Shown: in pieces, positions 1 through 17,132 of the stretch
How positions within the stretch are numbered: the stretch's first letter is position 1
How the letters are laid out: the number at the start of each line of letters is the position of its first letter
From: a virus
Lineage: Duplodnaviria > Heunggongvirae > Uroviricota > Caudoviricetes
Length of the DNA: 18,756 nt
Virus record (IMG/VR): IMGVR_UViG_2660237951_000012
Location: 1-18,756 of that record
Reading direction: 5' to 3' (one strand)
Made by a program: the position numbers and the translations under genes
The notes under the pieces: model-generated
Told to the model about the DNA's origin: nothing
Databases searched by the model: none
What the model saw: the letters and a program-made list of their open reading frames with translations, nothing else

Positions 1-413
1 GATCGTATGTGCCTTTATGATTGGTCTGTAGATAGTGTAGAGCAGAAAAGAAAAGGTGGAGTCAGAACAGGATGAAAGTCGGAGGATAAAAAGTCAGTTC
101 AAGTATGGGGGATTCAGTGGTTACCACCAGGAGCTTGCAATGGGAACAGCGAATATTAACGGTAGCCACCGATAAATTTCAAAAAAGAGCATATGCCTAA
201 TATTCAACCAAACAGTGGCATCTTAAATATACTATTCCAAATATATTAAAGTCCCATGGAGTTACCTGGAAAGGGCCTTCATGTCTGTAATTCCTACTTA
301 TGTAGGAAATGTTGTACAGAACATTTATTATAATCCTATTCAAATATAATAATCAGCCATTATTATATTTAAACACTAGAGAGTGTCGTTGGTATTTAAT
401 GGGGAAAGGTGAG

Positions 414-731
414 ATGAAAAAGATAGCTGCTATATCATTAATTAGTATTTTTCTTATGTCTGGTTGTGCTGTGCATAATGATGAGACAAGTATCGGTAAA
501 TTTGGTCTTGCATATAAAAGTAATATTCAGCGTAAACTCGATAACCAATACTACACCGAAGCCGAAGCTTCTTTAGCCAGGGGCAGAATATCTGGTGCAG
601 AAAATATAGTAAAAAATGATGCAGCCCATTTCTGTGTTACTCAGGGCAAAAAAATGCAGATAGTTGACCTGAAGACAGAAGGTGCAGGATTACATGGCGT
701 CGCTCGTCTGACATTCAAATGTGGAGAGTGA
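414..731 (+). CDS. small lipoprotein, 105 aa (host flank)
   Basis: ATG at 414 preceded by AAAGGTGAG Shine-Dalgarno; N-terminus MKKIAAISLISIFLMSGCAV has a signal peptide with LMSGC lipobox. The listed ORF start at 309 is an unsupported upstream extension. Length and position next to the P2 site fit E. coli yegR, but the sequence itself was not recognised. Confidence 0.6.
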   Translation: MKKIAAISLISIFLMSGCAVHNDETSIGKFGLAYKSNIQRKLDNQYYTEAEASLARGRISGAENIVKNDAAHFCVTQGKKMQIVDLKTEGAGLHGVARLTFKCGE

Positions 732-793
732 GAATATTTTTTGGTAAGCGTCAAACATGCGCGTTCTGGTTGTGCTTAGCCGGAACCTGTGCG

Positions 794-826
794 AGCACGA
801 TGCCGTTACGTGAAAGGCATCGTGCT
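794..826. other. perfect 11-bp inverted repeat (AGCACGATGCC / GGCATCGTGCT) with 11-nt loop
   Basis: Seen directly in the sequence downstream of the lipoprotein gene; no T-run follows, so it is not a canonical intrinsic terminator. Confidence 0.4.
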
Positions 827-888
827 ATGAAGGGAGATTCTATCGATGTGGTCAATGGAAGACGGTGGCCAGGGATAGGGCTTATGCA

Positions 889-916
889 TAAAAAATAAGC
901 CCGTGTAAGGGAGATT
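889..916 (+). repeat. attL core of the P2-like prophage
   Basis: TAAAAAATAAGCCCGTGTAAGGGAGATT is repeated exactly at 17223..17250 in direct orientation. It matches the P2 att core as remembered and lies next to the int gene. Confidence 0.85.
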
Positions 917-995
917 TAGGGTGTCACCAGTAGGGGCTTTCAACGGTACAATGCGGGTTTGAGCGGCATAAATTACCACTGAAAGCCCTTAAACG

Positions 996-2009
996 TTACT
1001 CTACTGTGGACACTATGTGGACACTCTCGGCCTCAGTACCACCTCTTAGCGGATTAAGAGAAATGGCGTCCTGAAGGTACTCTGGCGCAAAATGAGCGTA
1101 AACCATAGTTTGCTCAATCCGCGTGTGACCTAGTATCCGTTGTAGCGTGATAATACTTCCTCCATTAATCATGAAATGAGTGGCAAAGCTGTGCCTTAGT
1201 GCATGTGTGGCTTGCCCCATTGGCAAATCCGGTTTTATTGCTTTCATTGTTCGTCTGAAGCGAGGGTAATCAGCATCAGGGAATAAAAAACCTCGTTTGT
1301 TATCCGCGATCATTTTGGCAACAGCCTCTGAGATCGGGACGGTGCGTGGTTTGTTTGTTTTCGTTTTAACAAACGTGACGCGGTTATGGATGATATTTTC
1401 TGCTTTCAAACGAGCTGCTTCTCCCCAACGTGCTCCAGTACTCAGGCAAAGAATCGCAATCTTTTTGTTGTCGCCGTCAAGAGCAGCAAGCAGTAAGGCA
1501 ATTTCTTCCTGCGTGAGATAGCCTGTGTCTGGTTTTTCCTCCTTAAGCCTTTTTGTCCCTCTGATAGGGTGCTCACCAAAGAATAACTCCGCTTCAATCA
1601 GGGCTGTAAACATGCCGCTAATACATGTTAAATCACGATTGATACTCGAAGGTTTAATACCCTGACTTCTTCGGGTGGCGCAGTACTGGCTGATAAGCGA
1701 TTTCGTAATTTGAAATGCGCATGGGTCATTCGTTATTTTTGTGAAGATTTCAATTTTTCCAAGATTAGATTTCCCATGCTCTTCGTGTTTACCCTTTAAA
1801 TCCCACCAGATCTGTGTCAGCTCCGACAGACGTCGCTTGTCTGTTGGTTTTGATAGCCATTCTTTATTGTGGTGGTTGTACAACGTGTATTTCTCGAAAG
1901 CGACAGCTTCGCTTTTCTTATCAAACTTCCTACGGATGCGTTTTCCATTACGTCCAGTAGGGCGGATGTCCACTTCATATCGACCATCATCGAGTTTTTT
2001 GATTGCCAT
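996..2009 (-). CDS. int: P2-type tyrosine integrase
   Basis: 337-aa translation (MAIKKLDDGRYEVDIRPTGRNGKRIRRKF...HALRHSFATHFMINGGSIITLQRILGHTRIEQTMVYAHF) matches remembered P2 Int, with the R...HxxR...Y catalytic signature; adjacent to attL. Confidence 0.95.
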   Translation of the reverse strand: MAIKKLDDGRYEVDIRPTGRNGKRIRRKFDKKSEAVAFEKYTLYNHHNKEWLSKPTDKRRLSELTQIWWDLKGKHEEHGKSNLGKIEIFTKITNDPCAFQITKSLISQYCATRRSQGIKPSSINRDLTCISGMFTALIEAELFFGEHPIRGTKRLKEEKPDTGYLTQEEIALLLAALDGDNKKIAILCLSTGARWGEAARLKAENIIHNRVTFVKTKTNKPRTVPISEAVAKMIADNKRGFLFPDADYPRFRRTMKAIKPDLPMGQATHALRHSFATHFMINGGSIITLQRILGHTRIEQTMVYAHFAPEYLQDAISLNPLRGGTEAESVHIVSTVE

Positions 2010-2124
2010 CAGAAAACCCTCCGAGTGGTGTGTTTTTTTGCGACTACTAATCGCTTTTTTCGTGGTGGCTGAAATTTAGCCACCAATAGTAGGCACTTGT
2101 GATGAATATATTCACGATGAATTG

Positions 2125-2424
2125 TTAACCAGTCTTTTGACCGGAGTGGGGCGACGTTGTTTCGTTTTGCCCAAAGTGTGCGAGAGCGGGCGCAATTTGC
2201 CCGGACTCAGGAGCGATCTGATTGGTCATGAACCATAAAGTGTATTTGGTGAATTGTGGGGTCTGCAGGATGTTCATCATGACATCTGTTGGAGGTGTTG
2301 AACGACCACTTTCATAGTAACTCAGCGTGCCATACGGAACCCCTGTTAAATCAGCAAGTTGTTGTCTGCTCAAATACTCTGATTTTCGCATTAAGACTAT
2401 CTTCTCGCTTATCGTGTTTGACAT
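2125..2424 (-). CDS. C: P2 immunity repressor C
   Basis: 99 aa, MSNTISEKIVLMRKSEYLSRQQLADLTGVPYGTLSYYESG..., helix-turn-helix; divergent from cox as in P2. Confidence 0.9.
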   Translation of the reverse strand: MSNTISEKIVLMRKSEYLSRQQLADLTGVPYGTLSYYESGRSTPPTDVMMNILQTPQFTKYTLWFMTNQIAPESGQIAPALAHFGQNETTSPHSGQKTG

Positions 2425-2538
2425 GGTGTTTAGATCTCAATAGTATTTAGTTTAGATGTAGATTGTTTAGTGCTTGGATGTGGGCACTAAAAGGCATTAT
2501 AAGACATTAAACGCAATTCATGAGGGCTAGAGGACGAC
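2425..2538. promoter_or_regulatory. C/cox immunity switch region with operator direct repeats
   Basis: Direct 8-bp repeats GTTTAGAT at 2428..2435 and 2450..2457 (22 bp apart) plus further TTTAG/TAGAT copies between the divergent C and cox starts, consistent with the P2 C operator layout. Confidence 0.55.
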
Positions 2539-2814
2539 ATGAGCAAGCAAGTAACACTCATGACTGATGCGATTCCTTATCAGGAGTTCGCAAAACTAAT
2601 AGGAAAATCGACAGGAGCGGTTCGTCGGATGATTGATAAAGGAAAGCTGCCTGTAATTGATATGACCGATCCACAATCAGCTTCAGGTCGTGCAGGTGAA
2701 TATTGGGTATACCTTCCGGCATGGAATAACGGACTAAAACTGGCTTATGAAAGCCGCCCTAAAGAGATTCGTGACGGCTGGTTGATGTGGTTGTGCCTTT
2801 ATGACAGTGGATGA
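2539..2814 (+). CDS. cox: P2 Cox (excision and lytic-switch regulator)
   Basis: 91 aa, MSKQVTLMTDAIPYQEFAKLIGKSTGAVRRMIDKGKLPVIDMTDPQSASGRAGEYWVYLPAWNNGLKLAYESRPKEIRDGW; the last codons may be altered by the adjacent rearrangement junction. Confidence 0.88.
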   Translation: MSKQVTLMTDAIPYQEFAKLIGKSTGAVRRMIDKGKLPVIDMTDPQSASGRAGEYWVYLPAWNNGLKLAYESRPKEIRDGWLMWLCLYDSG

Positions 2815-3040
2815 AATACGCATCGCGGATAACGGCGCGTTTTGTCGCTTCCGGCCACTTTTCATCCCACCTGTCGACCGAAAACGCCCACGCCAGCCAC
2901 GGCAGCAGATTTGCCGGACAGGTGTCCGGGTTCCACAGCTCACGAATACTGACCGGCGTTTTTTCAATTTCCGCACAGGCTTTTGCGGCGGCGACCTCAA
3001 GCGGTGATGAGCCGGTCGGCAGCAGTCGCGAATCACTCAT
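2795..3040 (-). pseudogene. I: tail protein I, N-terminal fragment (3' end lost at junction with cox)
   Basis: MSDSRLLPTGSSPLEVAAAKACAEIEKTPVSIRELWNPDTCPANLLPWLAWAFSVDRWDEKW...HCHKGT matches remembered P2 gpI up to about residue 82, then diverges and terminates. Inverted relative to canonical prophage order. Confidence 0.7.
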
Positions 3041-3359
3041 CCGAGCCTCCGGTCACGACGCGGTATTCGGTACAGAAAGACGCCTGCGTACTGTTGAGCA
3101 CGATGTCGGCCAGTGGTGCAGCCAGTTCGACACGCTGCACACCTTCCACATGCAAAGCGGCATAAATGGCAGACAGACGGATGTCGCGCCCCAGCCGGTG
3201 CTGTGCCGTGATATACGCTTCCAGCTTTTTCACAGCGGCAGCGCGGATGGGTTCGCTTTCGGGACCAGGGTAAAGGTAAAGCGTGGCGTTTATCTGGTAT
3301 TCAACGATGGCGGCAGACTGCACGGTCAGCCGGTCTTCAAAACGCTTAAACTCATTCAT
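3033..3359 (-). pseudogene. J: baseplate protein J, C-terminal portion (108-aa ORF)
   Basis: Sits immediately upstream of I with an ATGAGTGA start/stop overlap, as J does in P2; C-terminus ...TEYRVVTGGSDE. P2 J is about 302 aa, so only the C-terminal third is present. Identity rests on gene order plus partial recollection. Confidence 0.55.
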
Positions 3360-3740
3360 CCCACTTACTCACCAGTTCGCCATTGATATAAAGCTCCATC
3401 GGGCGGGTGACCGGCTCCGGCGGCGGAGGTTCCGGGATATTCTTCACATGCAGCGCACCGTCAACCTCACTGACCAGCGTGCGCTCGGTCAGCATCAGGC
3501 TGATGCTGATATCAAAGCTGCTGTCATTGTTGATGTCCGCATAAAACGTGAAGCCCTTTTTCTGGCCTTCGTCGGTGGTCATGATGTCGGGCTGATTTTC
3601 CCGCAGCCACGCCAGCACCGGCACGATGAGCAGGTCAAAATCACCGGTAAAGTCGGTCACAATGACATTGAGCGTGTAACGCTTTTCGAATGACAGCGAC
3701 GTCGCCAGTGTGGAGGCAATACTCCCGTTATCCGTCGTGG
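3352..3740 (-). pseudogene. C-terminal fragment of an unresolved P2-like late (virion morphogenesis) protein
   Basis: Protein-like sequence ...TDFTGDFDLLIVPVLAWLRENQPDIMTTDEGQKKGFTFYADINNDSSFDISISLMLTERTL...MELYINGELVSKWDE ending in an ATGAATGA overlap with the downstream ORF. The N-terminal 50 residues of the listed ORF are Gly/Ala-rich and look like antisense of the P fragment. Family not identified. Confidence 0.35.
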
Positions 3741-3963
3741 CTGTCTGGAATATGACGTCAGCGCCACCGACATCACCAGCTCGTTTATGGCTATCCGCAA
3801 GACCATGACCAGCAGCGGACGCAGTGCCACCTATGAGGCCAGCCGCAGCGAGGAAGCCAGCCACGCCGACCTCGCCTGGGCGACCATGCACGCCCTGTTA
3901 AATGAGCCACTCACCGCCGGTATCAGCACCCCGCTGACATCCACCATTCTGGAGTTTTACTGA
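3741..3963 (+). pseudogene. P: terminase large subunit P, C-terminal remnant
   Basis: The frame ending in TGATG overlap with the Q start codon translates to ...MAIRKTMTSSGRSATYEASRSEEASHADLAWATMHALLNEPLTAGISTPLTSTILEFY. P precedes Q in the P2 P-Q operon; only about 70 codons remain (an internal ATG at 3787 would give 58 aa). Confidence 0.4.
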
Positions 3964-4997
3964 TGAGCAAGAAAAAAGGGAAAACACCGCAACCTGCGGC
4001 AAAAAAAATGACCGCCAGCGCCCCGAAAATGGAGGCATTCACCTTTGGTGAGCCGGTGCCGGTACTCGACCGCCGTGACATTCTGGATTACGTCGAGTGC
4101 ATCAGTAACGGCAGATGGTATGAGCCACCGGTCAGCTTTACCGGTCTGGCAAAAAGCCTGCGTGCTGCCGTGCATCACAGCTCACCGATTTACGTCAAAC
4201 GCAATATTCTGGCCTCGACATTTATCCCGCATCCGTGGCTTTCCCAGCAGGATTTCAGCCGCTTTGTACTGGATTTTCTGGTGTTCGGTAATGCGTTTCT
4301 GGAAAAGCGTTACAGCACCACCGGTAAGGTCATCAGACTGGAAACCTCACCGGCAAAATATACCCGCCGTGGTGTGGAAGAGGATGTTTACTGGTGGGTG
4401 CCGTCCTTCAACGAGCCGACAGCCTTCACGCCCGGCTCCGTGTTTCACCTGCTGGAGCCGGATATTAATCAGGAGTTGTACGGCCTGCCGGAATATCTCA
4501 GCGCCCTTAATTCTGCCTGGCTGAATGAGTCGGCCACGCTGTTCCGCCGAAAGTATTACGAAAATGGCGCTCATGCCGGATACATTATGTACGTCACCGA
4601 TGCCGTGCAGGATCGCAACGATATCGAAATGCTTCGCGAAAACATGGTTAAGTCGAAAGGCCGCAACAACTTTAAAAATCTGTTTCTCTATGCCCCACAG
4701 GGGAAAGCCGACGGCATCAAAATTATCCCGCTCAGTGAAGTGGCAACGAAGGACGATTTTTTTAATATCAAAAAAGCCAGCGCCGCAGACCTGCTGGACG
4801 CACACCGCGTCCCCTTTCAGTTGATGGGCGGCAAGCCGGAGAATGTCGGGTCACTGGGTGATATTGAGAAAGTGGCAAAAGTATTCGTGCGAAATGAACT
4901 TACTCCACTCCAAAACCGGCTCAGTGAGGTCAATCATTGGGTAGGAGAATCAGTAATATGTTTTAAAAATTACAAACTTAGCGATGAGGATTATTAG
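3963..4997 (+). CDS. Q: portal protein Q
   Basis: 344 aa, MSKKKGKTPQPAAKKMTASAPKMEAFTFGEPVPVLDRRDILDYVECISNGRWYEPPVSF... matches remembered P2 gpQ at the same length. Orientation is inverted relative to int/C/cox. Confidence 0.92.
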   Translation: MSKKKGKTPQPAAKKMTASAPKMEAFTFGEPVPVLDRRDILDYVECISNGRWYEPPVSFTGLAKSLRAAVHHSSPIYVKRNILASTFIPHPWLSQQDFSRFVLDFLVFGNAFLEKRYSTTGKVIRLETSPAKYTRRGVEEDVYWWVPSFNEPTAFTPGSVFHLLEPDINQELYGLPEYLSALNSAWLNESATLFRRKYYENGAHAGYIMYVTDAVQDRNDIEMLRENMVKSKGRNNFKNLFLYAPQGKADGIKIIPLSEVATKDDFFNIKKASAADLLDAHRVPFQLMGGKPENVGSLGDIEKVAKVFVRNELTPLQNRLSEVNHWVGESVICFKNYKLSDEDY

Positions 4998-5002
4998 CCT
5001 AT

Positions 5003-5029
5003 AAAAAAGGCCGCAGAGCGGCCTTTTTT
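5003..5029. terminator. bidirectional intrinsic terminator between convergent Q and the 835-aa gene
   Basis: A6-GGCCGC-aga-GCGGCC-T6: GC stem flanked by an A-run and a T-run, so it can terminate on both strands. Confidence 0.7.
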
Positions 5030-5030
5030 A

Positions 5031-7505
5031 TTATACCTTTGTAATATGCTTTAATATTTCAATCACTTTAGCAACATATGATTGACTTACGCCGCCATCT
5101 CCTTCATATTCAGATATTTTATTTAAAGACTGTTTACATGCTTCCATATATTTAACTTTATTACTCTTCGATAGCTTATTGTAATTTGACAAATGAAAAT
5201 CTTTATATCTCGAAAACTGCCTCAGAGAGTAAATATCCACATCCAAATTACTAAGAAGGTTGTTTGCCTTTTCGAAATTAGAGAATACAATATTACCATC
5301 TGGTATCTTTTCGCTTGAAAGCAAATATATTTTTGCTTGCTGGGTATCAATATTGTTCGTGTGATATTTTGCTCGCTTTTCAGCTAACGCATATGCCTGG
5401 TCAATATACTGTTGTGCTTTTGGGTAATTTTTGTAAGCAATAAAACACATTGCGTATTGCAACCAGAAGTGTGGGTTTGAATTTAGCCATGGAACTTCAA
5501 TTTTTAACTTTTCATAATATCGTTGTAGCGTTGATATTTTCATACTTTCAGGAAGCAGCTGCTCAACAAAAGAAAACCTGAGCATAGCTTTAAATATTCT
5601 ATCCTGTTCATAATCCTTAGAGTTTAATTGATTAAACCTTGATGCAATAGTAAGCATTCGCTCTATAATAACAGTAGGAGTGAAATTATTTTTTATTAGA
5701 TGTATGCAAAATAAACTAGACCCGTTAATGATCCTACCGCCATGGAAATTAAATATTGCCTTAAACGCACTGTTATTAGTAAAATCCGGATCATAAATCA
5801 AATCATTGCCTGCAAGATCAGATATAATCCCTCGATTCGTTTCAATGCCAAGTATTTGACAAAGACAAATTGAAATAATTGTGTTTTCATGACTCTTACT
5901 CTTTTTAATCCCGGTAATTAAATCACTTATCTTATTTTTTATTTGCGGCGACTCCAAAAGAGTAAGCAATGCAATTGAGAATTGACTGTTATTCTCATTA
6001 GCTAAATATCTTACCTTTTGCTCTACACTAAGCCCTGCATTATCTCCCCAAAGACCTAAGTTATCTATTATTTTTGAAAAATCTTTTAACTCTACCTCAT
6101 CTAACATATCAATATTTATTTCAGAATATTTGAATTTTATGCGCTCCAAATCATCTCTGTGATATTCATGATCTGCAACACGGGCAGTAGCAAGTATTAG
6201 TACATTTTCGTAAGCAGCTCTGCCCACATGTTCCATTAATTCAAGATTCTTCTCATACCCATCAAGTAATATGATATTTTTCATGGATGATTGTGCTATA
6301 TAGTCAATATCTGATATAAAATCACCATCTATATCGGCCACTGTATAAACATCATAACCACCGACGGATAAAACACTCCTTAGCTCTTTCAATAAGATGG
6401 TTTTTCCGTTTCCAAGCGCCGAATAAATAATTACATTTTTTGATTGTTCAATTAATGAAACAGCTTTATCAATTTCACTTCTTTTTACTAAAAACGGTAC
6501 CTTAGTATTACCAAGTATAAAATTATCAATATGATGATCATCCAAATCACCATACATCAACATTTTTTCAACCTCTTCATCTCTAATAGAACTTGATTCA
6601 TTGGTTATATCATGAAGAAAAAGTGACTGTAGCTTATACTCCTGCTCTTCTGATACTGAAGTAATATTATCTCTTATTCTATTGGCAAAACCACTCAAAC
6701 CTATAGGCAAAACGGTACCGAATTTTTCTAGAGTAAATTCTAATTCGATATCAGGATTGAGACTAGTTACAAAAAATGTTTTTTCTTTTAATTGAGGTAA
6801 GGTAGAAAGGATTTTTTTTATTTCAATATCATACATTGAATAACCGATAAAAACGATCGCGCCACACCTATCTAAATCTCTTTTAAAATAATAGAACCAT
6901 TCAGAGTCAGTAAAAGAGTCAGGGCTTGAATAAGATGAATCAGAAAGTTTGAATGAATCATCAAGCGTTTCAGTAGAAATATTATTAATTGAACCATTAA
7001 GATGAATACATAAATTCTTGCGCTTATAATATTCCTTTGTTTTATGCTCAAGATCTATAGTTTCGAATTTATTACCGGATGATTCAGCTGCGATCTCAAA
7101 ACATCGGTCATAATTAGTTGTGTAACAACGTTTCCATGGTAGCGATGCGATTATATTTTGGTTCTCCGATGTTGTTTTTATAGAATAATTATAAATTAAT
7201 AGTTCTATTAATTTTAATGACGAGTTTTTTGCTAAGTAATAATCAGAAGAAAAGCGTAGGTTATCATTTTTAGGTATTGAACAAAGACCACATAATATAT
7301 GAGATAGCTCTATTGAAGAAGAAGGATTAGTATCATTAATATTCGTAGCTTCTTTAGAGAAACCCGCCCCCAAAAACAACATTGCCTTTCCAGAACAAAT
7401 ATTTGTAACTAGTTTAGCATAATCAATAGTTTGCTTGCTAATAATCAACTCTGTAAAATTAATATCCATTATAAAACCTATCATATAAATTAAGTGGGAT
7501 TTCAT
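5031..7505 (-). CDS. SIR2-like domain / P-loop NTPase / TPR-like repeat protein, candidate anti-phage defence
   Basis: The N-terminus carries the SIR2-type motif set LFLGAGFS, TTNYD, IHLNGS and VFIGYSMYD. The middle has a Walker A-like YSALGNGKT, Walker B-like NIILLDGYE and LILATAR. The C-terminus is helical and repeat-like. The listed ORF starts on TTG at 7538; ATG at 7505 (or 7469) is more likely. Strongly AT-rich by eye. Confidence 0.8.
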   Translation of the reverse strand: MKSHLIYMIGFIMDINFTELIISKQTIDYAKLVTNICSGKAMLFLGAGFSKEATNINDTNPSSSIELSHILCGLCSIPKNDNLRFSSDYYLAKNSSLKLIELLIYNYSIKTTSENQNIIASLPWKRCYTTNYDRCFEIAAESSGNKFETIDLEHKTKEYYKRKNLCIHLNGSINNISTETLDDSFKLSDSSYSSPDSFTDSEWFYYFKRDLDRCGAIVFIGYSMYDIEIKKILSTLPQLKEKTFFVTSLNPDIELEFTLEKFGTVLPIGLSGFANRIRDNITSVSEEQEYKLQSLFLHDITNESSSIRDEEVEKMLMYGDLDDHHIDNFILGNTKVPFLVKRSEIDKAVSLIEQSKNVIIYSALGNGKTILLKELRSVLSVGGYDVYTVADIDGDFISDIDYIAQSSMKNIILLDGYEKNLELMEHVGRAAYENVLILATARVADHEYHRDDLERIKFKYSEINIDMLDEVELKDFSKIIDNLGLWGDNAGLSVEQKVRYLANENNSQFSIALLTLLESPQIKNKISDLITGIKKSKSHENTIISICLCQILGIETNRGIISDLAGNDLIYDPDFTNNSAFKAIFNFHGGRIINGSSLFCIHLIKNNFTPTVIIERMLTIASRFNQLNSKDYEQDRIFKAMLRFSFVEQLLPESMKISTLQRYYEKLKIEVPWLNSNPHFWLQYAMCFIAYKNYPKAQQYIDQAYALAEKRAKYHTNNIDTQQAKIYLLSSEKIPDGNIVFSNFEKANNLLSNLDVDIYSLRQFSRYKDFHLSNYNKLSKSNKVKYMEACKQSLNKISEYEGDGGVSQSYVAKVIEILKHITKV

Positions 7506-7566
7506 AGTTAGTTCATTTCTGAACACAAAGCAAGTCAATAGCCATAATAAAATCTTTAACGCGCAG

Positions 7567-7585
7567 TGCTTTCCCCGCCTCGCCC
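7567..7585 (-). other. P2 cos site (19-nt cohesive end)
   Basis: Minus strand reads GGCGAGGCGGGGAAAGCAC, a 19/19 match to the P2 cohesive end as remembered; orientation agrees with the inverted segment. Confidence 0.8.
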
Positions 7586-8154
7586 GCCCGCTTCATGTGG
7601 CGGTTTTAATGCAGTTGCATAGATACTATGGATCCGCACCAGCTCTGACCGCGAGCAGCTGGAACGGGCATCCCCGACGCATGCAAAAACATTCACTTGT
7701 TGCATGCACGGCTTATTTAATGACAAATCAACTTAAGCGTCACCGCAGCTCCCACAAAAAAACGTAACACCATGATTTTAGTGATATTTATGACTTTTTT
7801 AATTGCTTATTTAAGTCCGCCATATTGAAACCGTGCATTTTTTAGCCACCAATAACTTTAAAAAATTTACATTGCTTTCAATACCTTATCATCCGTAGTC
7901 CCTGCTTTTTACTTTGAGCTATATCAAAAAAAGCTCAAACATCCTTGATGCAAAACCAGTATTACACAACATAAAATGCAACCAGAAACAACGACATACT
8001 ATATGTTGTGTTGTTCAGGCTCTCTGTTCGGTGATATGCCAGATCACTTTGCGTTTAAACAGAGCATTATTTCAGGGCAAGACTTCGCTAAATAGTAACT
8101 CCGCCTCAGAAGCGCATATATCGGCGGAAATTGCCCTCTGCTTACAGGAGGAGA

Positions 8155-8268
8155 TATGAAGAAGTGCTATTACTGCATTCTCGTTCTGGCCCTCTTTGGC
8201 TATCCATATGGTAGTCCAAGTGGTTTGTCAGTAAACGTCAGTAATATCCATGTAAGTATTATTCTTTA
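8155..8268 (+). CDS. hypothetical 37-aa hydrophobic peptide
   Basis: ATG preceded by strong AGGAGG Shine-Dalgarno at 7-nt spacing; MKKCYYCILVLALFGYPYGSPSGLSVNVSNIHVSIIL; followed by a hairpin with T-run. No recognisable homology. Confidence 0.35.
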
Positions 8269-8282
8269 GTATGCTTCAAACA

Positions 8283-8311
8283 AAAAAACCACCTGCCAGG
8301 GTGGTTTTTTT
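8283..8311 (+). terminator. putative intrinsic terminator
   Basis: AAAAAAACCACCTGCCAGGGTGGTTTTTTT: CCACC/GGTGG stem followed by a T7 run. Confidence 0.5.
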
Positions 8312-8571
8312 GCGCCTGTCATCATTCCGATGAAAGACTAGCAAGACTTCGCTCGAGATGAATTATGCTTCGACAAAAGGTCACTCGCAATGGTTTTATT
8401 AGCCGAAATAGATGCTCTTTTATGACTCGAATCAAATAGCTGCCTTAAATTACATGCTAGCGATTCAATACAATTTAGCCTTCTACTTCAGCATGCTATT
8501 GCTCCTCATCTGCATTAGAGGCGCTTCGCATAATCCATTCAAAGGCATATAAAATCACGCTGCATTTTTAC

Positions 8572-10848
8572 TCAAATGGGTAACAAAAATCCAGGCCACT
8601 CATCAGCGACCTGATAATTGAAATATTTCCCGTAATAATTTACGGTCGCGCCACGCGCCAGCGCCTCAAGCTCCCATCGCTGCGGCCTGATACCGTTCTG
8701 AGCAAGGTCAACGCGGATACGGGTAATTTGCATTCTTTCCGACCGGGTCAGTCTGGCCGATGGTGCAATTTCATGTGGTTTTAACGGGCTTCCGTTTCTT
8801 TGCTGACGATTTGGTGTTCTCAGGTCGTGTTTTAATGCCCCCCTGAGCGCCCTCACGACCTCCGTGTCATTCCATTCGATAACACCGTCATCAACCAGAT
8901 TAAGCACGGCTGCGGCGTGTTCAGAAGGTGTGGGAGCCGGTAACGAAGTATCACCACCGGTGAGCTTTCCACAGTTATTGACAGGACTCCGAGGCGCGGC
9001 GATGCCGCTTTTTAAAGTCAAAGGCTCAACGACCGGCACTTTCGGAACAATGCGCCAGTCCGTCGTTCTGGTGATATGAATATGACGCGCGCCGAGATGC
9101 GGCGCGTAAATGCCGACCACTCTCTCGACTTCTTCCTCGTACTCGTTAACGTCATCCGACGGGCTACGGGCGACCCTGACAGTCTGACAATCGCGCGGGA
9201 CATTTGCCCCGCCCTGCGCGCTGATATACAACGCAAAATCACCACTGTCTGCAGCGGCGCGTGCAGCCTCGACGCGCTCGTCAAACTCATCAGCAATGCT
9301 GACGCCGCGAGGCAATTTGCGTAGTTCACGGTAAGCCCCCATTGTCGGCAGACCAACCGTTTTAAATTGCGGAATGCGCCACGTTGACGCCCATGCGGTA
9401 ACAGCAGCAGCTGTGTCTTTCAGCGGCCTACCGGTATCATTATCGAGCTGACCATCCAGTGCATAGCCGTCGATGTTTTTTGAGATGTATTTCGCGATAT
9501 ATCCCGCAGCACCGCCCCGGTTAAGGTGTTTTGCCTGAAAACGGTTTCGCGCGGCTCCTCTTTCGTCGCCATCCTCTTTGAGCGCATAGCGACGCATGAT
9601 TTCAATAATCTGGTTACGCTGGCGTGGATTACAAAAAAGCATCATATGCCAGTGCGGCGTTCCGTCGTGGTGTGGTTCAACAACACGCAAACCGTAGGCC
9701 TGTAAATCATTATCCTTGAATGCCGTGCGCATCAGGCTCCAGATACGGCAGAGATAACGCTGCGCATCCTTTGGATTAAATGCCTCATCGTTCCAGCCGT
9801 GATTTAGCTGGACGGTTTTACTTTCGCCTTTTCTGACCTGACGTGTCGGGTGATACTTTGACGGCGCGGTCAGCGTGATAAACATCCCCACATCACCCTC
9901 TGCGGCGGCGTAACGCTCAATACCGGCGATGGTGTTCATCAGCTCCATCCGGCGAATTTCTGGATTAGAAATACTGCCCATCACCTTACTGATAAGGTCG
10001 ATGCGCTCGCCGGTTTCCTTGTTTTCAAGGTCACACGATTTAAGAAATTCCAGATTTGCCTGGCGGCGCGCACGCACATCACGAATGGCATGTTTACTGG
10101 CATAAGGAGAACGGTCTTTATTGACCTCCCCGACAGCAATCAGTAACGCCTCATGCCAGCGCATACGCTGGCCTTTAAGCTGATGAGTCCACCACTCATC
10201 GTTAAACAGGCGGGCAATGGCAGAATATGCCTGCCTCGTGGTCATCTGCCCTTTACGGTATTTTTTCCAGTAAAGCGGGGAAATATTGAAAGCACGTGCA
10301 GCGCCAGCAACATGACCATACAGATGTGCCTGCGCCTCATCCGTAAACAGCGATTCTTTTTCGCCATGCGCATCCACCCAGGCATCGCAGAGTTCCTCAT
10401 ACATCATGAAAAGCTGCGATGAGATACGGGCAGCAAACTTTTTCAGCTCCTTGTCATTCATTCCCGGCAGGCGCGCATAGTGGTCACGCTCTGCCAGAAA
10501 CAGCAACGACGCGTCGGTGTTCATTTCATGGCGCTGATTCACACGCTCAATGCGCGGCCATAAACGACGCTGAAAAGTGGATGTGAGGAAATAAAACCCG
10601 TGCACCGGGCTTTTATTGCGCCGGATGTAGTCATAGCGTGAAGTAAACAGCGAGCGCAAAAAGTAAGGCAGGCGGTTAATCGTGGATAAAACACCTTGCA
10701 CCTGACGCATCTCGTCACGTGTAAGGGGTCTTTCGCGCCCGACAGCCTCGCGTGGCGCGTTCCATGCATAAGCACCGGTAAACGCCTTACCGGTGCCTGC
10801 GGCAAATGCTGACGGAGGGACAAAACGCCCGGAGGCTTTAACGGCCAT
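8572..10848 (-). CDS. A: replication initiation endonuclease A (rolling-circle initiator)
   Basis: Matches remembered P2 gpA across its length (MAVKASGRFVPPSAFAAGTGK...HWHMMLFCNPRQ...YIAKYISKNIDGY). The listed ORF begins 14 codons upstream at 10890; the internal ATG at 10848 corresponds to the P2 start. Confidence 0.9.
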   Translation of the reverse strand: MAVKASGRFVPPSAFAAGTGKAFTGAYAWNAPREAVGRERPLTRDEMRQVQGVLSTINRLPYFLRSLFTSRYDYIRRNKSPVHGFYFLTSTFQRRLWPRIERVNQRHEMNTDASLLFLAERDHYARLPGMNDKELKKFAARISSQLFMMYEELCDAWVDAHGEKESLFTDEAQAHLYGHVAGAARAFNISPLYWKKYRKGQMTTRQAYSAIARLFNDEWWTHQLKGQRMRWHEALLIAVGEVNKDRSPYASKHAIRDVRARRQANLEFLKSCDLENKETGERIDLISKVMGSISNPEIRRMELMNTIAGIERYAAAEGDVGMFITLTAPSKYHPTRQVRKGESKTVQLNHGWNDEAFNPKDAQRYLCRIWSLMRTAFKDNDLQAYGLRVVEPHHDGTPHWHMMLFCNPRQRNQIIEIMRRYALKEDGDERGAARNRFQAKHLNRGGAAGYIAKYISKNIDGYALDGQLDNDTGRPLKDTAAAVTAWASTWRIPQFKTVGLPTMGAYRELRKLPRGVSIADEFDERVEAARAAADSGDFALYISAQGGANVPRDCQTVRVARSPSDDVNEYEEEVERVVGIYAPHLGARHIHITRTTDWRIVPKVPVVEPLTLKSGIAAPRSPVNNCGKLTGGDTSLPAPTPSEHAAAVLNLVDDGVIEWNDTEVVRALRGALKHDLRTPNRQQRNGSPLKPHEIAPSARLTRSERMQITRIRVDLAQNGIRPQRWELEALARGATVNYYGKYFNYQVADEWPGFLLPI

Positions 10849-11113
10849 ATGAGCCAAAAGCCTCTGAACAACGCTTGCTGAGTTGCTCAACCTGCGCGTT
10901 TAAATCAGCAAAAGACTTTGCGCTTCCGGTCAGAATATCGTGATGCATCAGGCCGGAAACGAGCTGGCTTAATTTCGGGTAATAACCAACCACCGCCAGC
11001 CATTCCTGACCGGCGTTTTTACCGCTTTCCGCTCTCTTTTTCTCGTGGAGAATAAACTGAAAGCTGTCACTGGTAACGACATAACGTTCGCCAATTTCAA
11101 TACGAATACTCAT
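10838..11113 (-). CDS. small P2 early-region protein upstream of A (orf83-like)
   Basis: 91 aa with GGAG Shine-Dalgarno 6 nt upstream of the ATG; its stop overlaps the A start. Position matches the small ORFs that precede A in P2; function unknown. Confidence 0.5.
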   Translation of the reverse strand: MSIRIEIGERYVVTSDSFQFILHEKKRAESGKNAGQEWLAVVGYYPKLSQLVSGLMHHDILTGSAKSFADLNAQVEQLSKRCSEAFGSYGR

Positions 11114-11188
11114 GCCGTTCTCCGGTAATGTTTGTTTTTTGCTTCAAAGACTGACTGGCAGGAAACACAACGCGTGGCTGACGGATAA

Positions 11189-12784
11189 GCCGCACGACGG
11201 GCACAGGACGCCACCACAGCACGAAAAGGCCTTGTCCAGCTCAGTAGTGCCACCAACAGCACGTCTGAAACGCTCGCTGCAACACCAAAAGCGGTAAAAG
11301 CAGCATATGACCTTGCTAACGGGAAATATACCGCACAGGACGCCACCACAGCGCGAAAAGGCCTTGTCCAGCTCAGTAGCGCCACCAACAGCGATTCTGA
11401 AACGCTTGCGGCAACACCAAAGGCGGTTAAGACAGCGTATGACCTTGCTAACGGGAAATACACTGCACAGGATGCCACTACAGCGCGAAAAGGTCTTGTC
11501 CAGCTCAGTAGCGCCACCAACAGTGATTCTGAAACGCTGGCCGCAACACCAAAAGCGGTGAGGTCTGCCTATGACAATGCTGAAAAACGTCTTCAGAAAG
11601 ATCAGAACGGTGCGGATATTCCGGGAAAGGATACCTTCACGAAAAATATCGGTGCCTGTCGTGCTTATAGCGGCGCTTTGAGCACTGAAGCCGGAAACTG
11701 GACAACCGCGCAGTTTATTGACTGGCTAGAGTCTCAGGGAGCCTTTAATCATCCCTACTGGATGTGCAAGTGTTCCTGGTCATACGGTAATAACAAAATT
11801 ATTACCGATACTGACTGTGGGACTATTCATCTTGCAGGTTGCGTGATTGAGGTTATGGGCGTTAAAGCAGCAATGACCATTCGTGTGACCACTCCGAGTA
11901 CATCAAGCGGTGGTGGTACCACCAGTGCGCAATTCACGTATATCAATCACGGAGCTGATTATGCGCCGGGCTGGCGACGCGACTACAATACGAAAAATAA
12001 GCAACCGGCTTTTGCATTAGGGAAAACAGGAAATACGGTTGCAAATAATAAAGCGGTAGGATGGAACTGGGACAGTGGTGCTTATTGTGCACAGGATGGC
12101 GGAGCATCAAAAATGGTGCTGCATTTTTACACGGGTGAGGGAAGTTGTCCGGCAATGCAGTTTCTTGTGGATTATAAAAACAGGGGGATTTTTTACAGGT
12201 CGGCACGTGATGGGTATGGATTTGAGGCTGACTGGTCAGAGTTTTATACAACATCACGAAAGCCAACACCTGCGGATATTCTTGCTCTGGCATTATCAGG
12301 CGGAAGCATGTCAGGCAGCATAAAATTTATCAATGATGCCTTCCTGATTTGGGAAAGAAACACTGACTGGGCGAAAATTGGATTTAAAAATGATTCAGAT
12401 GCTGATTCTGACTCATACATGTGGTTTGAAACTGGTGATAATGGCAATGAATATTTTAAATGGCGCATCAGGTCTGGCAGCACAACAAAAGATCTGATGA
12501 CGCTTAAGTCTGATGCACTACGGGTTACCGGGCAGGTGATACCATCAAATTTCAGCAATTTTGACTCCCGCTATGTCCGGGATCTCCGACTTGGTGGTGC
12601 AGCCACATACAAACCTGCGAACAATGGCATGACATGGACACATCAGGCACCGTCCGGGTGTGTATATACCGGCATTATTGTTCAGGATACCGGCTCAAAC
12701 TCTGCCGATAACATTGGTGGCGTATATTACAGACCGGTTCAGAAATACATTAACGGGACATGGTACAACGTGGCGCAGGTATAA
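11189..12784 (+). pseudogene. H: tail fibre protein H, 5'-truncated
   Basis: The frame is open from the stop at 11186 with no ATG, GTG or TTG before the GTG at 11558. It encodes the H repeat region, the conserved WERNTDWAKIGFKNDSDADSDSYMWFETGDNGNEYFKWR block and the C-terminus RPVQKYINGTWYNVAQV. The roughly 200 N-terminal residues of P2 H are absent. Confidence 0.8.
11201..11575 (+). repeat. tandem 132-bp repeats (about 2.8 copies) in the tail-fibre H gene
   Basis: The unit encoding AYDLANGKYTAQDATTARKGLVQLSSATNS(D/T)SETLAATPKAVKT recurs with period 132 nt (TATGACCTTGCTAACGGGAAATA at 11306 and 11438). It generates the spurious ORFs 11110..11520(-) and 11307..11561(+). Confidence 0.85.
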
Positions 12785-12787
12785 TTT

Positions 12788-13315
12788 ATGCAGCATTTGA
12801 TAAATATAACGGCAGGTAATCCAAAAACGGTTGAACAATATCAATTGACAAAGGACTTTGATGTTGTCTGGTTTTTTACAGAAGATGGTAAGAACTGGTA
12901 CGAAGAACAAAAGTATTTTGCTGATGACACGATAAAAATAGCGTACGACAAAGATAATATTATCCGCTATGTAGAAAAGGATGTGACAGCTATCAGACCG
13001 GATGGATTAAGTGTTGTTGAAGTGCCGGATATTACTGCTAACCGACGGGCGGACATTTCAGGGAACTGGATGTTTAAGGACGGCAAAGTGATTAAACGCA
13101 TTTATACGGCAGAGGAATTACAACAGCAGGCAGAAATTCGGAAAGCCAGACTTCTTGCAGATGCTGAATCCGTGATTTTGCCGCTGGAGCGCGCTGTCAG
13201 GCTGAACATGGCAACAGAGGAGGAGCGCACACGGCTGGAGGCTTGGGAACGCTACAGCGTTTTGGTCAGTCGTGTGGATCCTGCAAATCCTGAATGGCCG
13301 GAAATGCCGCAATAA
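12788..13315 (+). CDS. G: tail fibre assembly protein G
   Basis: 175 aa, [40 protein letters not shown]...[14 protein letters not shown] matches remembered P2 gpG. Confidence 0.9.
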
Positions 13316-13348
13316 GTTGTATAAGCTCTGGTGTGAGATTACATATCT

Positions 13349-13392
13349 ATGGCACAGAGTAAAGCCTAATCTGGCAGTCCGCTCTGTGCCAT
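13349..13392. other. 11-bp perfect inverted repeat (ATGGCACAGAG / CTCTGTGCCAT) with 22-nt loop
   Basis: Seen directly, just downstream of G at the boundary of the AT-rich cargo island. Confidence 0.4.
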
Positions 13393-13510
13393 TACCGGAC
13401 ATACTGAGCAGAAGGCTAAAAAGGACGCTTTCAGGACATATAGCAAGGGAGCAAGGATGAAAGAATTAACCAAGTATATTTAATGTTTCAATCATGATAG
13501 TTTCTGAATT

Positions 13511-13533
13511 AAAGGGGGCTACCCACCCCCTTT
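13511..13533 (-). terminator. putative hairpin terminator downstream of the 92-aa gene
   Basis: AAAGGGGG-ctaccca-CCCCCTTT stem-loop immediately after the stop at 13536; flanking T-run is weak. Confidence 0.4.
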
Positions 13534-13535
13534 AA

Positions 13536-13814
13536 TTACTTGTTCCACTCAGTCAGAATTTGGTTACTAACTTCATCTGAGAGATTGTACCAATAAGCTG
13601 AGTTATTGGTTGCGTCTACAACAATAAGCTTATCATCACTATCCATGACCGCCCTCACAATTTTGGCTGCATCCTCGGCAGAGTAACTACAGTTAACATA
13701 CCAGTTCGATTCAGTTGTTAAAGCCCAATTTCCTAAAGATTTAATTGCATCATACACAGCCGCATAATCTTTCGTTTTAATGAGGTCGTAAGTAATAAAT
13801 AAATTATTAGCCAT
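13536..13814 (-). CDS. hypothetical 92-aa protein (Z/fun-position cargo)
   Basis: ATG with GGGAG Shine-Dalgarno 8 nt upstream; MANNLFITYDLIKTKDYAAVYDAIKSLGNWALTTESNWYV...; no homology recognised. Confidence 0.6.
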   Translation of the reverse strand: MANNLFITYDLIKTKDYAAVYDAIKSLGNWALTTESNWYVNCSYSAEDAAKIVRAVMDSDDKLIVVDATNNSAYWYNLSDEVSNQILTEWNK

Positions 13815-13840
13815 AAATCATCTCCCAAAGGACAAAGAAA

Positions 13841-13866
13841 AAAGCGCCTAGAAAGGCGCTCATATA
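13841..13866 (-). terminator. intrinsic terminator between the DUF3606-like gene and the 92-aa gene
   Basis: Minus strand reads AGCGCC-tttcta-GGCGCT followed by TTTTTTCTTT, lying between the stop at 13867 and the next Shine-Dalgarno. Confidence 0.6.
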
Positions 13867-14046
13867 TTAATGGTCTTTAAGCCATGCCTGTACTTTCTTA
13901 GCCGAATGACCTACAGCCTGTACGGCTTGAACAAGTTTGGCCTCGCTAACTCCAAACTTTTCAGCCCAATCACGTCTCTCGTAATCCTGTTTGATACTTA
14001 TTAAATCATTGTCAGGGGTACCGATTTTGGTCTTATCATCAGCCAT
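13867..14046 (-). CDS. DUF3606-like small protein
   Basis: MADDKTKIGTPDNDLISIKQDYERRDWAEKFGVSEAKLVQAVQAVGHSAKKVQAWLKDH with GAGGA Shine-Dalgarno upstream of this ATG; the listed ORF extends to 14085. The motif pattern resembles the DUF3606 family from memory. Confidence 0.55.
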   Translation of the reverse strand: MADDKTKIGTPDNDLISIKQDYERRDWAEKFGVSEAKLVQAVQAVGHSAKKVQAWLKDH

Positions 14047-14537
14047 TTTACTGATTCCTCGTGATACAGGCTTATACCTGCCCATTAGTTATATGGCTCC
14101 CGTGCTGCTTCGTAAACGTTCAATAATCAAACAATTGACACTGATCATAAAACCAGTTATAGGATTTGACTCTAGCTTGGATATATGATGATGCCACCCC
14201 CTTTATATTGTTGTCGGTAACTCACAGACATTGAACTCATGCTGGTGAGTGAAAGGCTACATAAACGCCCAACATTTAAACTGCCCTCAGCAGCGTTCGC
14301 GGAGCAATATACAGGCTTCGTATTCAATCCTTGCCCTACGAGAAACCCTAGCCGTTGCCTCGTTTTCAAGTGTCAGGAAGTTCTTTGTCAGACCTCATAC
14401 AGTCTTGGGCTGGGTGAGGTGCATGGGGGAAGTTGAAGCCTTAACTGTTGAGGTAAATCGAACCATAAGTGTGCAATTTTTCAAGCCCGGCGCTATTTTA
14501 GTATTGAAAACAATTAGTACGCCCCCAAGGACAACTC

Positions 14538-15230: not shown

Positions 15231-15360
15231 TACAATTGACCTGCTCCCCATAAATTAGCATACCACAATCTCAGGTCCGCTCTTCGCTCAAAACAGGCTG
15301 TCAGATTTGACAGAATTTTGGTTACGTAATTTGTCAGTTGGAAACAGAGAGAGTACAAAT

Positions 15361-15395
15361 CAAGGCAGGCAAGCTGATTGCCCGCCTTTTCTTTA
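15361..15395 (+). terminator. putative intrinsic terminator after the 230-aa gene
   Basis: AAGGCAGGC...GCCCGCCTT imperfect stem (one mismatch) followed by TTTTCTTTATCTGTTGTTT. Confidence 0.5.
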
Positions 15396-15490
15396 TCTGT
15401 TGTTTCATCCACTGACCAGCCAGGTCAAATAGCGTCTCATGCACTGCCCAACAGAAAATAGTTGCACCCATTAACCACGGAGTTAAACGG

Positions 15491-17121: not shown

Positions 17122-17132
17122 TTACAAACAGA

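What the first reader, a model, noticed from the sequence alone, without database searches (positions are those of the whole stretch)
5031..7538. AT-rich 835-aa SIR2 / NTPase / TPR single-protein candidate defence gene between the Q terminator and cos
The N-terminal 280 residues carry the SIR2-type motif set LFLGAGFS, TTNYD, IHLNGS and VFIGYSMYD, the fold used as an NAD-depleting effector in Thoeris ThsA, DSR and Avs5-type systems. The middle has a P-loop (YSALGNGKT), a Walker B-like IILLDGYE and a sensor-like LILATAR, suggesting a STAND-like NTPase. The C-terminus is helical and repeat-like (for example YAMCFIAYKNYPKAQQYIDQAYALAEK). The gene is much more AT-rich than the flanking P2 genes and sits where P2-like phages carry variable cargo (old/tin region), here between the Q terminator and cos. 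At 835 aa it is shorter than typical Avs or DSR proteins, so it may be a compact or undescribed variant.
Basis: partly seen in the sequence, partly recalled or inferred. Interest (0 to 1): 0.85.

Follow-up and report, generated by a model that had tools for sequence, protein, structure and literature searches.

The report
Avs5 SIR2-STAND defence gene, P2 prophage
The AT-rich gene next to the cos site of this decayed P2-like prophage encodes an untested E. coli member of the known Avs5 family of anti-phage proteins, which destroy NAD+ on infection, so it is a sound defence-gene call but not a new kind of system.

Summary
The product is most likely 812 aa (ATG at 7469), not 835 aa. It is identical to E. 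coli WP_157846090.1, annotated "SIR2 family protein".

Avs5 proteins are normally about 800-850 aa with a short C-terminal sensor, so the "compact, undescribed variant" idea fails. The location, the gpA-gpQ cos-proximal hotspot of P2-like phages, is a published defence hotspot. This exact protein is already listed there in Rousset et al. 2022, untested.

What remains unknown is its phage trigger and its assembly mode: EfAvs5's filament and bundle contact residues are mostly not conserved. The carrier prophage is scrambled and defective.

Verdict: new member of a known kind, low to moderate interest.

The parts
5031..7469 (-). Coding sequence of the Avs5-family SIR2-STAND protein (812 aa plus stop), identical to WP_157846090.1
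   Evidence: ORF. Identical translation to the RefSeq CDS in strain M172-1. Full-length match to EfAvs5 9JAP.
6645..7469 (-). SIR2 NADase effector domain (about aa 1-275): GAGFS 34-38, TTNYD 117-121 (Asn119), HLNG 156-159 (Asn158 at the HG/NG position), Tyr180, Ser211
5670..6644 (-). Central STAND/NOD NTPase (about aa 276-600): Walker A GNGKT (Lys356), Walker B LLD (Asp403, single acidic residue), sensor TAR (Arg430)
5034..5669 (-). C-terminal all-helical sensor-type domain (about aa 601-812), with the conserved PHFWLQYAM and YHTNNIDTQQA motifs
7470..7538 (-). In-frame upstream extension of the mechanical ORF (TTG 7538, ATG 7505); probably 5' untranslated leader or promoter region, not coding
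   Evidence: Homologue lengths and N-terminal alignment. Some annotations do use ATG 7505, giving an 824-aa form seen on 86 contigs.
7470..7555 (-). AT-rich region between cos and the start codon that belongs to the inserted cargo; the gene's promoter is presumed to be here or just upstream, but is not identified
   Evidence: G+C jumps from 22-30% to 60% at about 7550. The consensus promoter scan found no more sites than shuffled sequence.
5003..5029 (.). Bidirectional intrinsic-terminator-like hairpin (A6-GGCCGC-AGA-GCGGCC-T6) shared by convergent Q and the Avs5-like gene
   Evidence: Read directly from the sequence. It was not listed by the simple terminator scan.
7566..7584 (-). P2-type cos core 19-mer GGCGAGGCGGGGAAAGCAC, 97 nt upstream of the start codon
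   Evidence: Exact match, none in 200 shuffles. That this 19-mer is the P2 cohesive end is from my own knowledge. Independent support: the region matches the ends of P2-like phage records.
3963..4997 (+). P2 portal gene Q, left border of the hotspot
   Evidence: RefSeq annotation of the 99%-identical locus.
8572..10890 (-). P2 replication gene A, right border of the hotspot
   Evidence: RefSeq annotation 'replication endonuclease'.

Best explanation
The gene encodes a single-protein anti-phage system of the Avs5 (AVAST type 5, SIR2-STAND) family. It sits as cargo in the cos-proximal gpA-gpQ hotspot of a P2-like prophage.

Inferred mechanism, by homology to EfAvs5 and PaAvs5:
1. In uninfected cells the protein is an autoinhibited monomer, with a nucleotide bound by the central NOD (Lys356, Asp403, Arg430).
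2. A protein of an infecting phage is recognised through the C-terminal helical domain.
3. NOD- and SIR2-mediated oligomerisation pairs the SIR2 domains and switches on NAD+ hydrolysis (Asn119, Asn158) to ADP-ribose and nicotinamide.
4. NAD+ depletion stalls replication of the invading phage, which protects the lysogen population and hence the prophage.

Shown here: architecture, full-length homology, conservation of catalytic and nucleotide-binding residues, fold, and genomic setting. Inferred only: NADase activity, protection, oligomerisation geometry, and the identity of the trigger.
For: phmmer against PDB gives EfAvs5 (9JAP) at E 1.9e-130 over query residues 4-796, 33.8% identity over 788 aligned residues. 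A profile of 30 homologues hits 9JAP at E 8e-241 across 812 of 820 profile positions.

The equivalents of EfAvs5 A41, T140, N141, Y142, N180, Y202, S233, K379, D426 and R453 are all conserved. They are invariant or nearly invariant in the subfamily.

Mutational and biochemical proof of the mechanism exists for the homologues: PMC11897194 (N141A, K379A, D426A and C-terminal deletion abolish defence; NAD+ falls on T7 infection; gp1.7 is the trigger) and PMC12931631 (N110A, N153A, K363A, R438A and C-terminal deletions; JADA is the trigger).

The location is the published P2 defence hotspot (PMC9122126). WP_157846090 is listed there in that paper's supplementary file 6. AVS_V has been reported in P2 prophages (bioRxiv 10.64898/2026.02.27.708500).

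Homologues sit at cargo positions of other mobile elements: a Proteus P2-like prophage at the same hotspot, a Cronobacter lambdoid prophage, and a Citrobacter P4-like satellite remnant.

The G+C content (31% against about 51-53% for Q and A) indicates horizontal acquisition.
Against: No experiment exists on this protein.

Most EfAvs5 residues shown to mediate dimer, filament and bundle contacts are not conserved. These are T262, H362, D164, R185, E307, K552, H622, K623, E85, K792 and the basic C-terminal tail. The filament mechanism therefore cannot simply be transferred.

EfAvs5 R537, which contacts the ATP phosphate, is Lys here.

The Pfam STAND and TPR matches are below their curated cutoffs.

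PADLOC, NCBIfam and PHROGs give no Avs5 or family assignment. However, EfAvs5 itself also gets only ThsA hits in this PADLOC copy.

No promoter was identified. The carrier prophage is defective. One strain carries an IS-disrupted copy.
Confidence: 0.85

Rival explanations
1. The gene is a silent or decaying passenger. It survives intact only by chance in a scrambled, defective prophage and provides no defence in this host.
For: The prophage has an inversion and several deletions that removed the capsid, lysis and most tail genes. No promoter stands out above shuffled sequence. In strain NMBU-W12E19 the same gene is split by ISKpn26 inside a similarly degraded prophage. Only 4 of 5426 complete E. 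coli genomes carry the gene.
Against: The ORF is uninterrupted and 100% identical in protein sequence to the copy in an apparently complete prophage. That exact sequence occurs on 217 contigs. All catalytic and nucleotide-binding residues are intact. The preprint 10.64898/2026.02.27.708500 reports that pseudogenised defences are rare in P2 and P4.
Confidence: 0.07
2. It is an Avs5-like protein whose output or assembly differs from the EfAvs5 model. For example, it might form a closed oligomer rather than bundled filaments, or the SIR2 domain might act by ADP-ribosyl transfer or deacylation instead of bulk NAD+ hydrolysis.
For: The interface and bundling residues of EfAvs5 are mostly replaced, and the poly-basic C-terminal tail is absent. 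The global TM-score of the model to the filament subunit is only 0.38 despite clear homology. Walker B has a single acidic residue, D403-G404.
Against: The NAD pocket is fully conserved, including the NG variant. The NG variant is functional for NAD+ hydrolysis in PaAvs5-1 (PMC12931631). The low TM-score may instead reflect a closed monomer model being compared with an open filament subunit; PMC12931631 reports closed AlphaFold3 models for PaAvs5, but I did not inspect this model's conformation. NAD+ depletion has been seen in every Avs5 tested so far.
Confidence: 0.06
3. It is the SIR2 component of a multi-gene system (Thoeris ThsA-like, SIR2-HerA or DSR-like) whose partner lies elsewhere.
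For: The only PADLOC hits are to ThsA SIR2 models (E 3.2e-12 and 3e-9), with a weak Dsr1 hit (E 0.015).
Against: The ThsA match covers only the SIR2 part (profile positions 12-211 of 478). The rest of the protein is a P-loop NOD plus a helical domain homologous to EfAvs5. No TIR, HerA or other partner ORF lies between Q and A. Homologues in four different element types occur without a conserved neighbour.
Confidence: 0.02

Closest known systems
EfAvs5 (Escherichia fergusonii AVAST type 5 / SIR2-STAND; PDB 9JAP; PMC11897194)
   Same: Same order of domains: SIR2, then NBD-HD-WHD NOD, then a short helical C-terminal sensor. The two are collinear over nearly the whole length, at 34% identity (SIR2 38%, NOD 29%, C-terminus 38%). 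The NAD-pocket residues are identical, including the Asn at the canonical His position. Walker A Lys, Walker B Asp and the TTR/TAR sensor Arg are conserved. Both are single-gene systems.
   Different: About 66% of residues differ. Most dimer, filament and bundle contact residues and the basic C-terminal tail are not conserved. EfAvs5 R537 is Lys here and the second Walker B Asp is Gly. The trigger is unknown (EfAvs5: T7 gp1.7). This protein is 812 aa against 849 aa, and it is carried in a P2-like prophage hotspot.
PaAvs5-1/-2/-3 and EcAvs5 (other Avs5 clades; PMC12931631) and the 9NC9 'AVAST5 filament' structure
   Different: Only 13-15% identity in the structural alignment to 9NC9, and no sequence-profile hit. 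This protein groups with EfAvs5 (clade 3 in that paper) rather than with those clades. No formal phylogeny was done here.
P2 cos-proximal defence hotspot cargo (old/tin in P2; Rousset et al. 2022, PMC9122126; AVS_V in Klebsiella P2 prophages, bioRxiv 10.64898/2026.02.27.708500)
   Same: Same locus, between gpA and gpQ and adjacent to cos. It is AT-rich swapped-in cargo, and this exact accession is listed there as a hotspot arrangement 'SIR2_2'.
   Different: It is unrelated in sequence to old/tin. It lies on the Q side of cos. In a P2 genome the cos-Q gap is only about 70 bp and the cargo lies on the A side. It was not among the curated entries retrieved from that paper's tables, and no test of it was seen.
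Thoeris ThsA, DSR1/DSR2, SIR2-HerA and KomC (other SIR2 NADase defence effectors)
   Same: Homologous SIR2 NADase fold and motif set. The presumed outcome is the same: NAD+ depletion.
   Different: There is no SLOG domain and no ThsB partner, no HerA partner, and none of the long DSR sensor. Activation here is through an in-cis STAND NTPase.
Human SAMD9/SAMD9L
   Different: About 11-12% identity. SAMD9 is a much larger multi-domain eukaryotic protein with a different effector output.

Membership tests
Avs5 (AVAST type 5, SIR2-STAND) | N-terminal SIR2-like domain (Pfam PF13289) | tested here: met
   SIR2_2 E 1.2e-13, 51.8 bits against a cutoff of 24.5, residues 129-243 of the 825-aa query.
Avs5 (AVAST type 5, SIR2-STAND) | Catalytic SIR2 motifs: GAGxS, TTNxD (catalytic Asn), HG or NG motif | tested here: met
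   GAGFS 34-38, TTNYD 117-121 and NG 158-159 align to EfAvs5 A41, T140, N141, Y142 and N180. They are invariant in 30 homologues. The motif definitions come from PMC12931631.
Avs5 (AVAST type 5, SIR2-STAND) | Central STAND/NOD NTPase (nSTAND3-type) with Walker A, Walker B and a sensor/finger Arg | tested here: met
   K356, D403 and R430 align to EfAvs5 K379, D426 and R453. Pfam nSTAND3 (E 2.5e-4) and nSTAND5 (E 1.4e-3) are below their curated cutoffs for this sequence, but are recorded on many homologues. The fold matches AAA+ ATPases and Avs4.
Avs5 (AVAST type 5, SIR2-STAND) | Short C-terminal helical-repeat sensor domain | tested here: met
Avs5 (AVAST type 5, SIR2-STAND) | Full-length collinear homology to an experimentally validated Avs5 | tested here: met
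Avs5 (AVAST type 5, SIR2-STAND) | Stand-alone single gene (no obligatory partner) | tested here: met
   It is the only substantial ORF between Q and cos. Homologues have no conserved neighbour in four different contexts.
Avs5 (AVAST type 5, SIR2-STAND) | Recognition by a dedicated defence-system HMM (PADLOC or DefenseFinder AVAST_V) | tested here: inconclusive
   PADLOC 2.0.0 gives only ThsA SIR2 hits. The positive control EfAvs5 also gives only ThsA/SIR2 hits, so the library copy cannot decide. DefenseFinder is not available here.
Avs5 (AVAST type 5, SIR2-STAND) | Phage-triggered NAD+ hydrolysis and phage protection | not testable with these tools
   Requires plaque assays and NAD+ measurements.
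Avs5 (AVAST type 5, SIR2-STAND) | EfAvs5-type filament and bundle interfaces (a feature of EfAvs5, not established as family-defining) | tested here: not met
   Of 12 alignable mutationally validated interface residues, one is identical (K241 to K219) and two are conservative (K461 to R438, E404 to D381). E85, K792 and the basic tail are not conserved.
Thoeris ThsA | SIR2 fused to a C-terminal SLOG domain, with an adjacent ThsB (TIR) gene | tested here: not met
   The PADLOC ThsA match is limited to profile positions 12-211 of 478. No TIR ORF is nearby.
DSR1/DSR2 | A protein of more than 1000 aa with N-terminal SIR2 and a long non-NTPase sensor region | tested here: not met
   812 aa with a P-loop NOD. 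Dsr1 E 0.015, local only. The Foldseek matches to DSR2 (E about 1e-9) are far weaker than the match to Avs5.
SIR2-HerA | Two-gene operon with a HerA helicase | tested here: not met
   No HerA or DUF87 ORF lies next to the gene.

The most novel reading that the evidence does not exclude
This E. coli lineage of EfAvs5-clade proteins senses a trigger different from the two known ones (T7 gp1.7, jumbo-phage JADA). It also assembles through interfaces unlike the EfAvs5 filament. In addition, the same lineage occupies the cos-adjacent slot of both a P2-like helper phage (this window) and a P4-like satellite remnant (Citrobacter, 65% identity, same orientation relative to a conserved cos region). This hints at older cos-linked shuttling of one defence family between helper and satellite, which a recent survey reports as almost never happening for close (>85% identity) homologues.
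Probability: 0.2. Interest if true: 0.4.

Novelty: new member of a known kind. Interest (0 to 1): 0.25.

Why it matters
It adds one more uncharacterised allele to a family whose mechanism, structure and distribution are already published. Its practical value is as a test case for two questions. First, what does an EfAvs5-clade sensor recognise when it is carried by a P2-like phage? It must tolerate P2 and P4 proteins while blocking competitors. Second, is filament bundling general, given that the contact residues differ? It also shows that the defence gene remains intact in this prophage although most structural genes have been lost.

Tried and rejected
- **PADLOC:** gave no Avs5 assignment, only ThsA SIR2 models. 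I ran EfAvs5 as a control and it behaved the same way, so the negative result is uninformative.
- **NCBIfam and PHROGs:** no family for the protein.
- **Phage records:** the 50,697-record collection holds no homologue by megablast or tblastn.
- **Promoter and terminator scan of 4900-8700:** no more sites than in shuffled sequence. It also missed the hairpin that I read by eye.
- **Paper for PDB 9NC9:** not found in the library.
- **Table S1 of PMC12931631:** it does not contain this accession, so the clade was assigned only by similarity to EfAvs5.
- **P2-type cos 19-mer in the Proteus P2-like locus:** no convincing match.
- **ThsA, DSR and SIR2-HerA readings:** considered and rejected (see the membership table).
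- **The 835-aa TTG start:** rejected on homologue lengths, the RefSeq start and the aligned Citrobacter start.
Full report
**1. Observation**

The minus-strand ORF 5031..7538 exists (835 codons from a TTG).

- The gene is 31.4% G+C, against 50.8% for gene Q and 53.2% for gene A. The composition switches within about 50 bp at both borders.
- Downstream, it converges on portal gene Q (stop at 4997). An A6-GGCCGC-AGA-GCGGCC-T6 hairpin at 5003-5029 lies between the two genes.
- Upstream, 97 nt beyond the ATG at 7469, lies an exact copy of the 19-mer GGCGAGGCGGGGAAAGCAC at 7566-7584 (none in 200 shuffles). I know this from the literature as the P2 cohesive end. The region also matches the termini of P2-like phage records.
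- The real product is probably 812 aa. RefSeq starts the identical protein (WP_157846090.1) at ATG 7469. Homologues are 810-816 aa and cover 100% of that version. The Citrobacter orthologue's ATG, preceded by GGAG, aligns to 7469. An 824-aa annotation from ATG 7505 also circulates.

**2. What it is**

- A phmmer search of all PDB sequences gives one outstanding hit: 9JAP, 'SIR2-like domain-containing protein'. The match has E 1.9e-130 and is collinear over query residues 4-796.
- 9JAP is EfAvs5, the AVAST type 5 SIR2-STAND protein of Escherichia fergusonii.
- Identity to EfAvs5 is 33.8% over 788 aligned positions: SIR2 38%, NOD 29%, C-terminus 38%.
- A profile built from 30 homologues hits 9JAP at E 8e-241 across 812 of 820 profile positions.
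- Pfam finds SIR2_2 above its threshold. The nSTAND3, nSTAND5 and nSTAND6 models and the TPR models all score below their curated cutoffs.
- An AlphaFold2 model built with the alignment is confident (pLDDT 87.5, pTM 0.84).
- Foldseek against the PDB ranks 9JAP first (E 1.3e-51). Next come 9NC9 'Helical assembly of AVAST5 filament', then SAMD9, DSR2 and ThsA.
- The global TM-score to 9JAP is low (0.38). One possible reason is that a closed monomer model is being compared with an open filament subunit. PMC12931631 reports closed AlphaFold3 models for PaAvs5. I did not inspect the conformation of this model.

**3. Residue-level test** (812-aa numbering)

- All seven EfAvs5 residues modelled as contacting NAD+ are identical here: A35, T118, N119, Y120, N158, Y180 and S211 (EfAvs5 A41, T140, N141, Y142, N180, Y202, S233).
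- The nucleotide-binding residues are also kept: Walker A K356 (K379), Walker B D403 (D426) and the sensor Arg R430 (R453). These positions are invariant or nearly invariant in the 30-sequence alignment.
- The canonical sirtuin catalytic His position is occupied by Asn158. This is the 'NG' variant, shown to be functional in PaAvs5-1 and present in about half of Avs5 proteins.
- Walker B has a single acidic residue (D403-G404). PaAvs5-1 shares this feature, and EfAvs5 binds ATP without hydrolysing it.
- By contrast, the EfAvs5 residues shown by mutation to mediate dimer, filament and bundle contacts are mostly replaced. K241 is identical, and K461 to R and E404 to D are conservative. T262, H362, D164, R185, E307, K552, H622, K623, E85, K792 and the basic C-terminal tail are not conserved.

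**4. Family and distribution**

- An exhaustive HMMER scan of 1.84 billion cluster representatives finds 738 with E<=1e-30. Nearly all of the 150 best listed are 800-830 aa and collinear. [quoted passage not shown]
- The exact 812-aa protein occurs on 217 contigs, and every listed member of its 90% cluster is from E. coli.
- It is rare: 4 of 5426 complete E. coli genomes carry it. It is absent from 50,697 phage records.
- Homologues at 49-65% identity sit in cargo positions of other mobile elements:
  - the same gpA-portal interval of an apparently complete Proteus P2-like prophage;
  - a Cronobacter lambdoid prophage, between the replication genes and the RusA/Q region;
  - a Citrobacter P4-like satellite remnant, described below.
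- The Citrobacter remnant reads: psu fragment, cos-like site, gene, P4-type integrase, ssrA. About 75 nt around cos are roughly 80% identical to the window. The gene has the same orientation relative to cos.

**5. Setting**

- Rousset et al. 2022 (PMC9122126) defined the cos-proximal region between gpA and gpQ of P2-like phages as a defence hotspot. WP_157846090 appears in that paper's supplementary file 6 as the arrangement 'SIR2_2' in two draft genomes. It was not among the curated entries I retrieved, and I saw no test of it.
- A 2026 preprint reports AVS_V in P2 prophages. It also reports that P2 and P4 almost never share close (>85% identity) defence homologues.
- In a P2 genome the cos-Q gap is about 70 bp and the cargo lies on the A side. 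Here the A-cos side (about 1 kb) has no long ORF, and the 2.5-kb cargo lies on the Q side.
- The window's prophage is defective. Compared with the apparently complete prophage of strain M172-1:
  - 2793-11207 is inverted relative to the flanks;
  - it carries internal deletions (junctions at 2792/2793, about 3335 and about 3733) that remove the 5' part of P, O through the lysis genes, and most baseplate genes;
  - a further deletion removes FI through most of U.

**6. Mechanism**

By homology, the proposed sequence of events is:
1. The protein rests as an autoinhibited monomer with nucleotide bound.
2. A phage protein is sensed through the C-terminal domain.
3. NOD- and SIR2-driven oligomerisation activates the enzyme.
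4. The SIR2 domain hydrolyses NAD+.
5. Replication of the infecting phage is blocked.

None of these steps has been shown for this protein. The divergence of the interface residues means that the assembly geometry and the trigger are open questions.

**7. Verdict**

Its novelty hypothesis is not. This is an uncharacterised member of the EfAvs5 branch of a known, structurally solved family, at a known hotspot, and already catalogued there.

Noticed in passing
window 1-18756 (junctions 2792/2793, ~3335, ~3733, 11207, ~15540): The whole window is a small, scrambled, defective P2-like prophage. It lies between the yegS-side attachment end and ogrK/cyaR/yegQ (trhP). Segment 2793-11207 is inverted relative to the flanks. 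Several deletions have removed the capsid, lysis and most tail genes, while int, C, cox, Q, cos, A, D, ogr and the cargo genes remain. None of the 5426 complete E. coli genomes covers 80% or more of the window in one place.
   Followed up: partly
window 8156-8269 (+), hairpin ~8275-8315: A 37-codon ORF (MKKCYYCILVLALFGYPYGSPSGLSVNVSNIHVSIIL) with a strong AGGAGG Shine-Dalgarno sequence, followed by a GC-rich hairpin with flanking A and T runs. It sits in the otherwise ORF-free cos-gpA spacer, where P2 carries old/tin. There is no Pfam or PHROGs match. It could be a small membrane peptide or toxin.
   Followed up: partly
L002 7163-11663 (Citrobacter freundii JBQHPC010000019.1): The closest non-E. 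coli homologue (65% identity) lies in a P4-like satellite remnant: psu fragment, cos-like site (3 mismatches to the P2 19-mer, with about 80% identity over about 75 nt to the window's cos region), the gene, a P4-type integrase and ssrA. The same defence lineage therefore sits in the cos-adjacent slot of both helper-type and satellite-type elements.
   Followed up: partly
L007 3132-6805 (E. coli NMBU-W12E19, NZ_CP042892.1): In one of the four complete genomes that carry the gene, it is split by an IS5-family ISKpn26 insertion. The surrounding P2-like prophage there is also heavily degraded (truncated portal and replication genes).
   Followed up: no
window 13536-15230: The region between tail-fibre assembly gene G and the deleted sheath gene (the position of P2 Z/fun, from my own knowledge of the P2 map) holds three small genes of unknown function: 13536-13814 (-) phrog_1090, 13867-14085 (-) DUF3606, and 14538-15230 (+) phrog_11802. 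These may be additional cargo.
   Followed up: partly
window 17227-17312 (-): CyaR/RyeE sRNA gene (Rfam RF00112, 100.7 bits), between ogrK and yegQ/trhP at the prophage's right end.
   Followed up: no
window 309-731 (+): An ORF of unknown function (phrog_21109; annotated as hypothetical in RefSeq) between the integrase and the yegS-side end of the prophage. The 2026 P2/P4 preprint lists this position as a minor defence hotspot.
   Followed up: no
window 6993-7004 (codons for H156-L-N158-G159): The SIR2 domain carries the 'NG' variant at the canonical HG catalytic position, plus an invariant His two residues upstream (H156). The role of that His has not been addressed in the Avs5 papers I read.
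   Followed up: partly
L003 8001-10442 (Cronobacter sakazakii SWWP01000010.1): A 52%-identical homologue sits in a lambdoid prophage between the lambda-P-like replication gene and the RusA/antiterminator Q region. The family therefore uses cargo slots in unrelated temperate phages.
   Followed up: no
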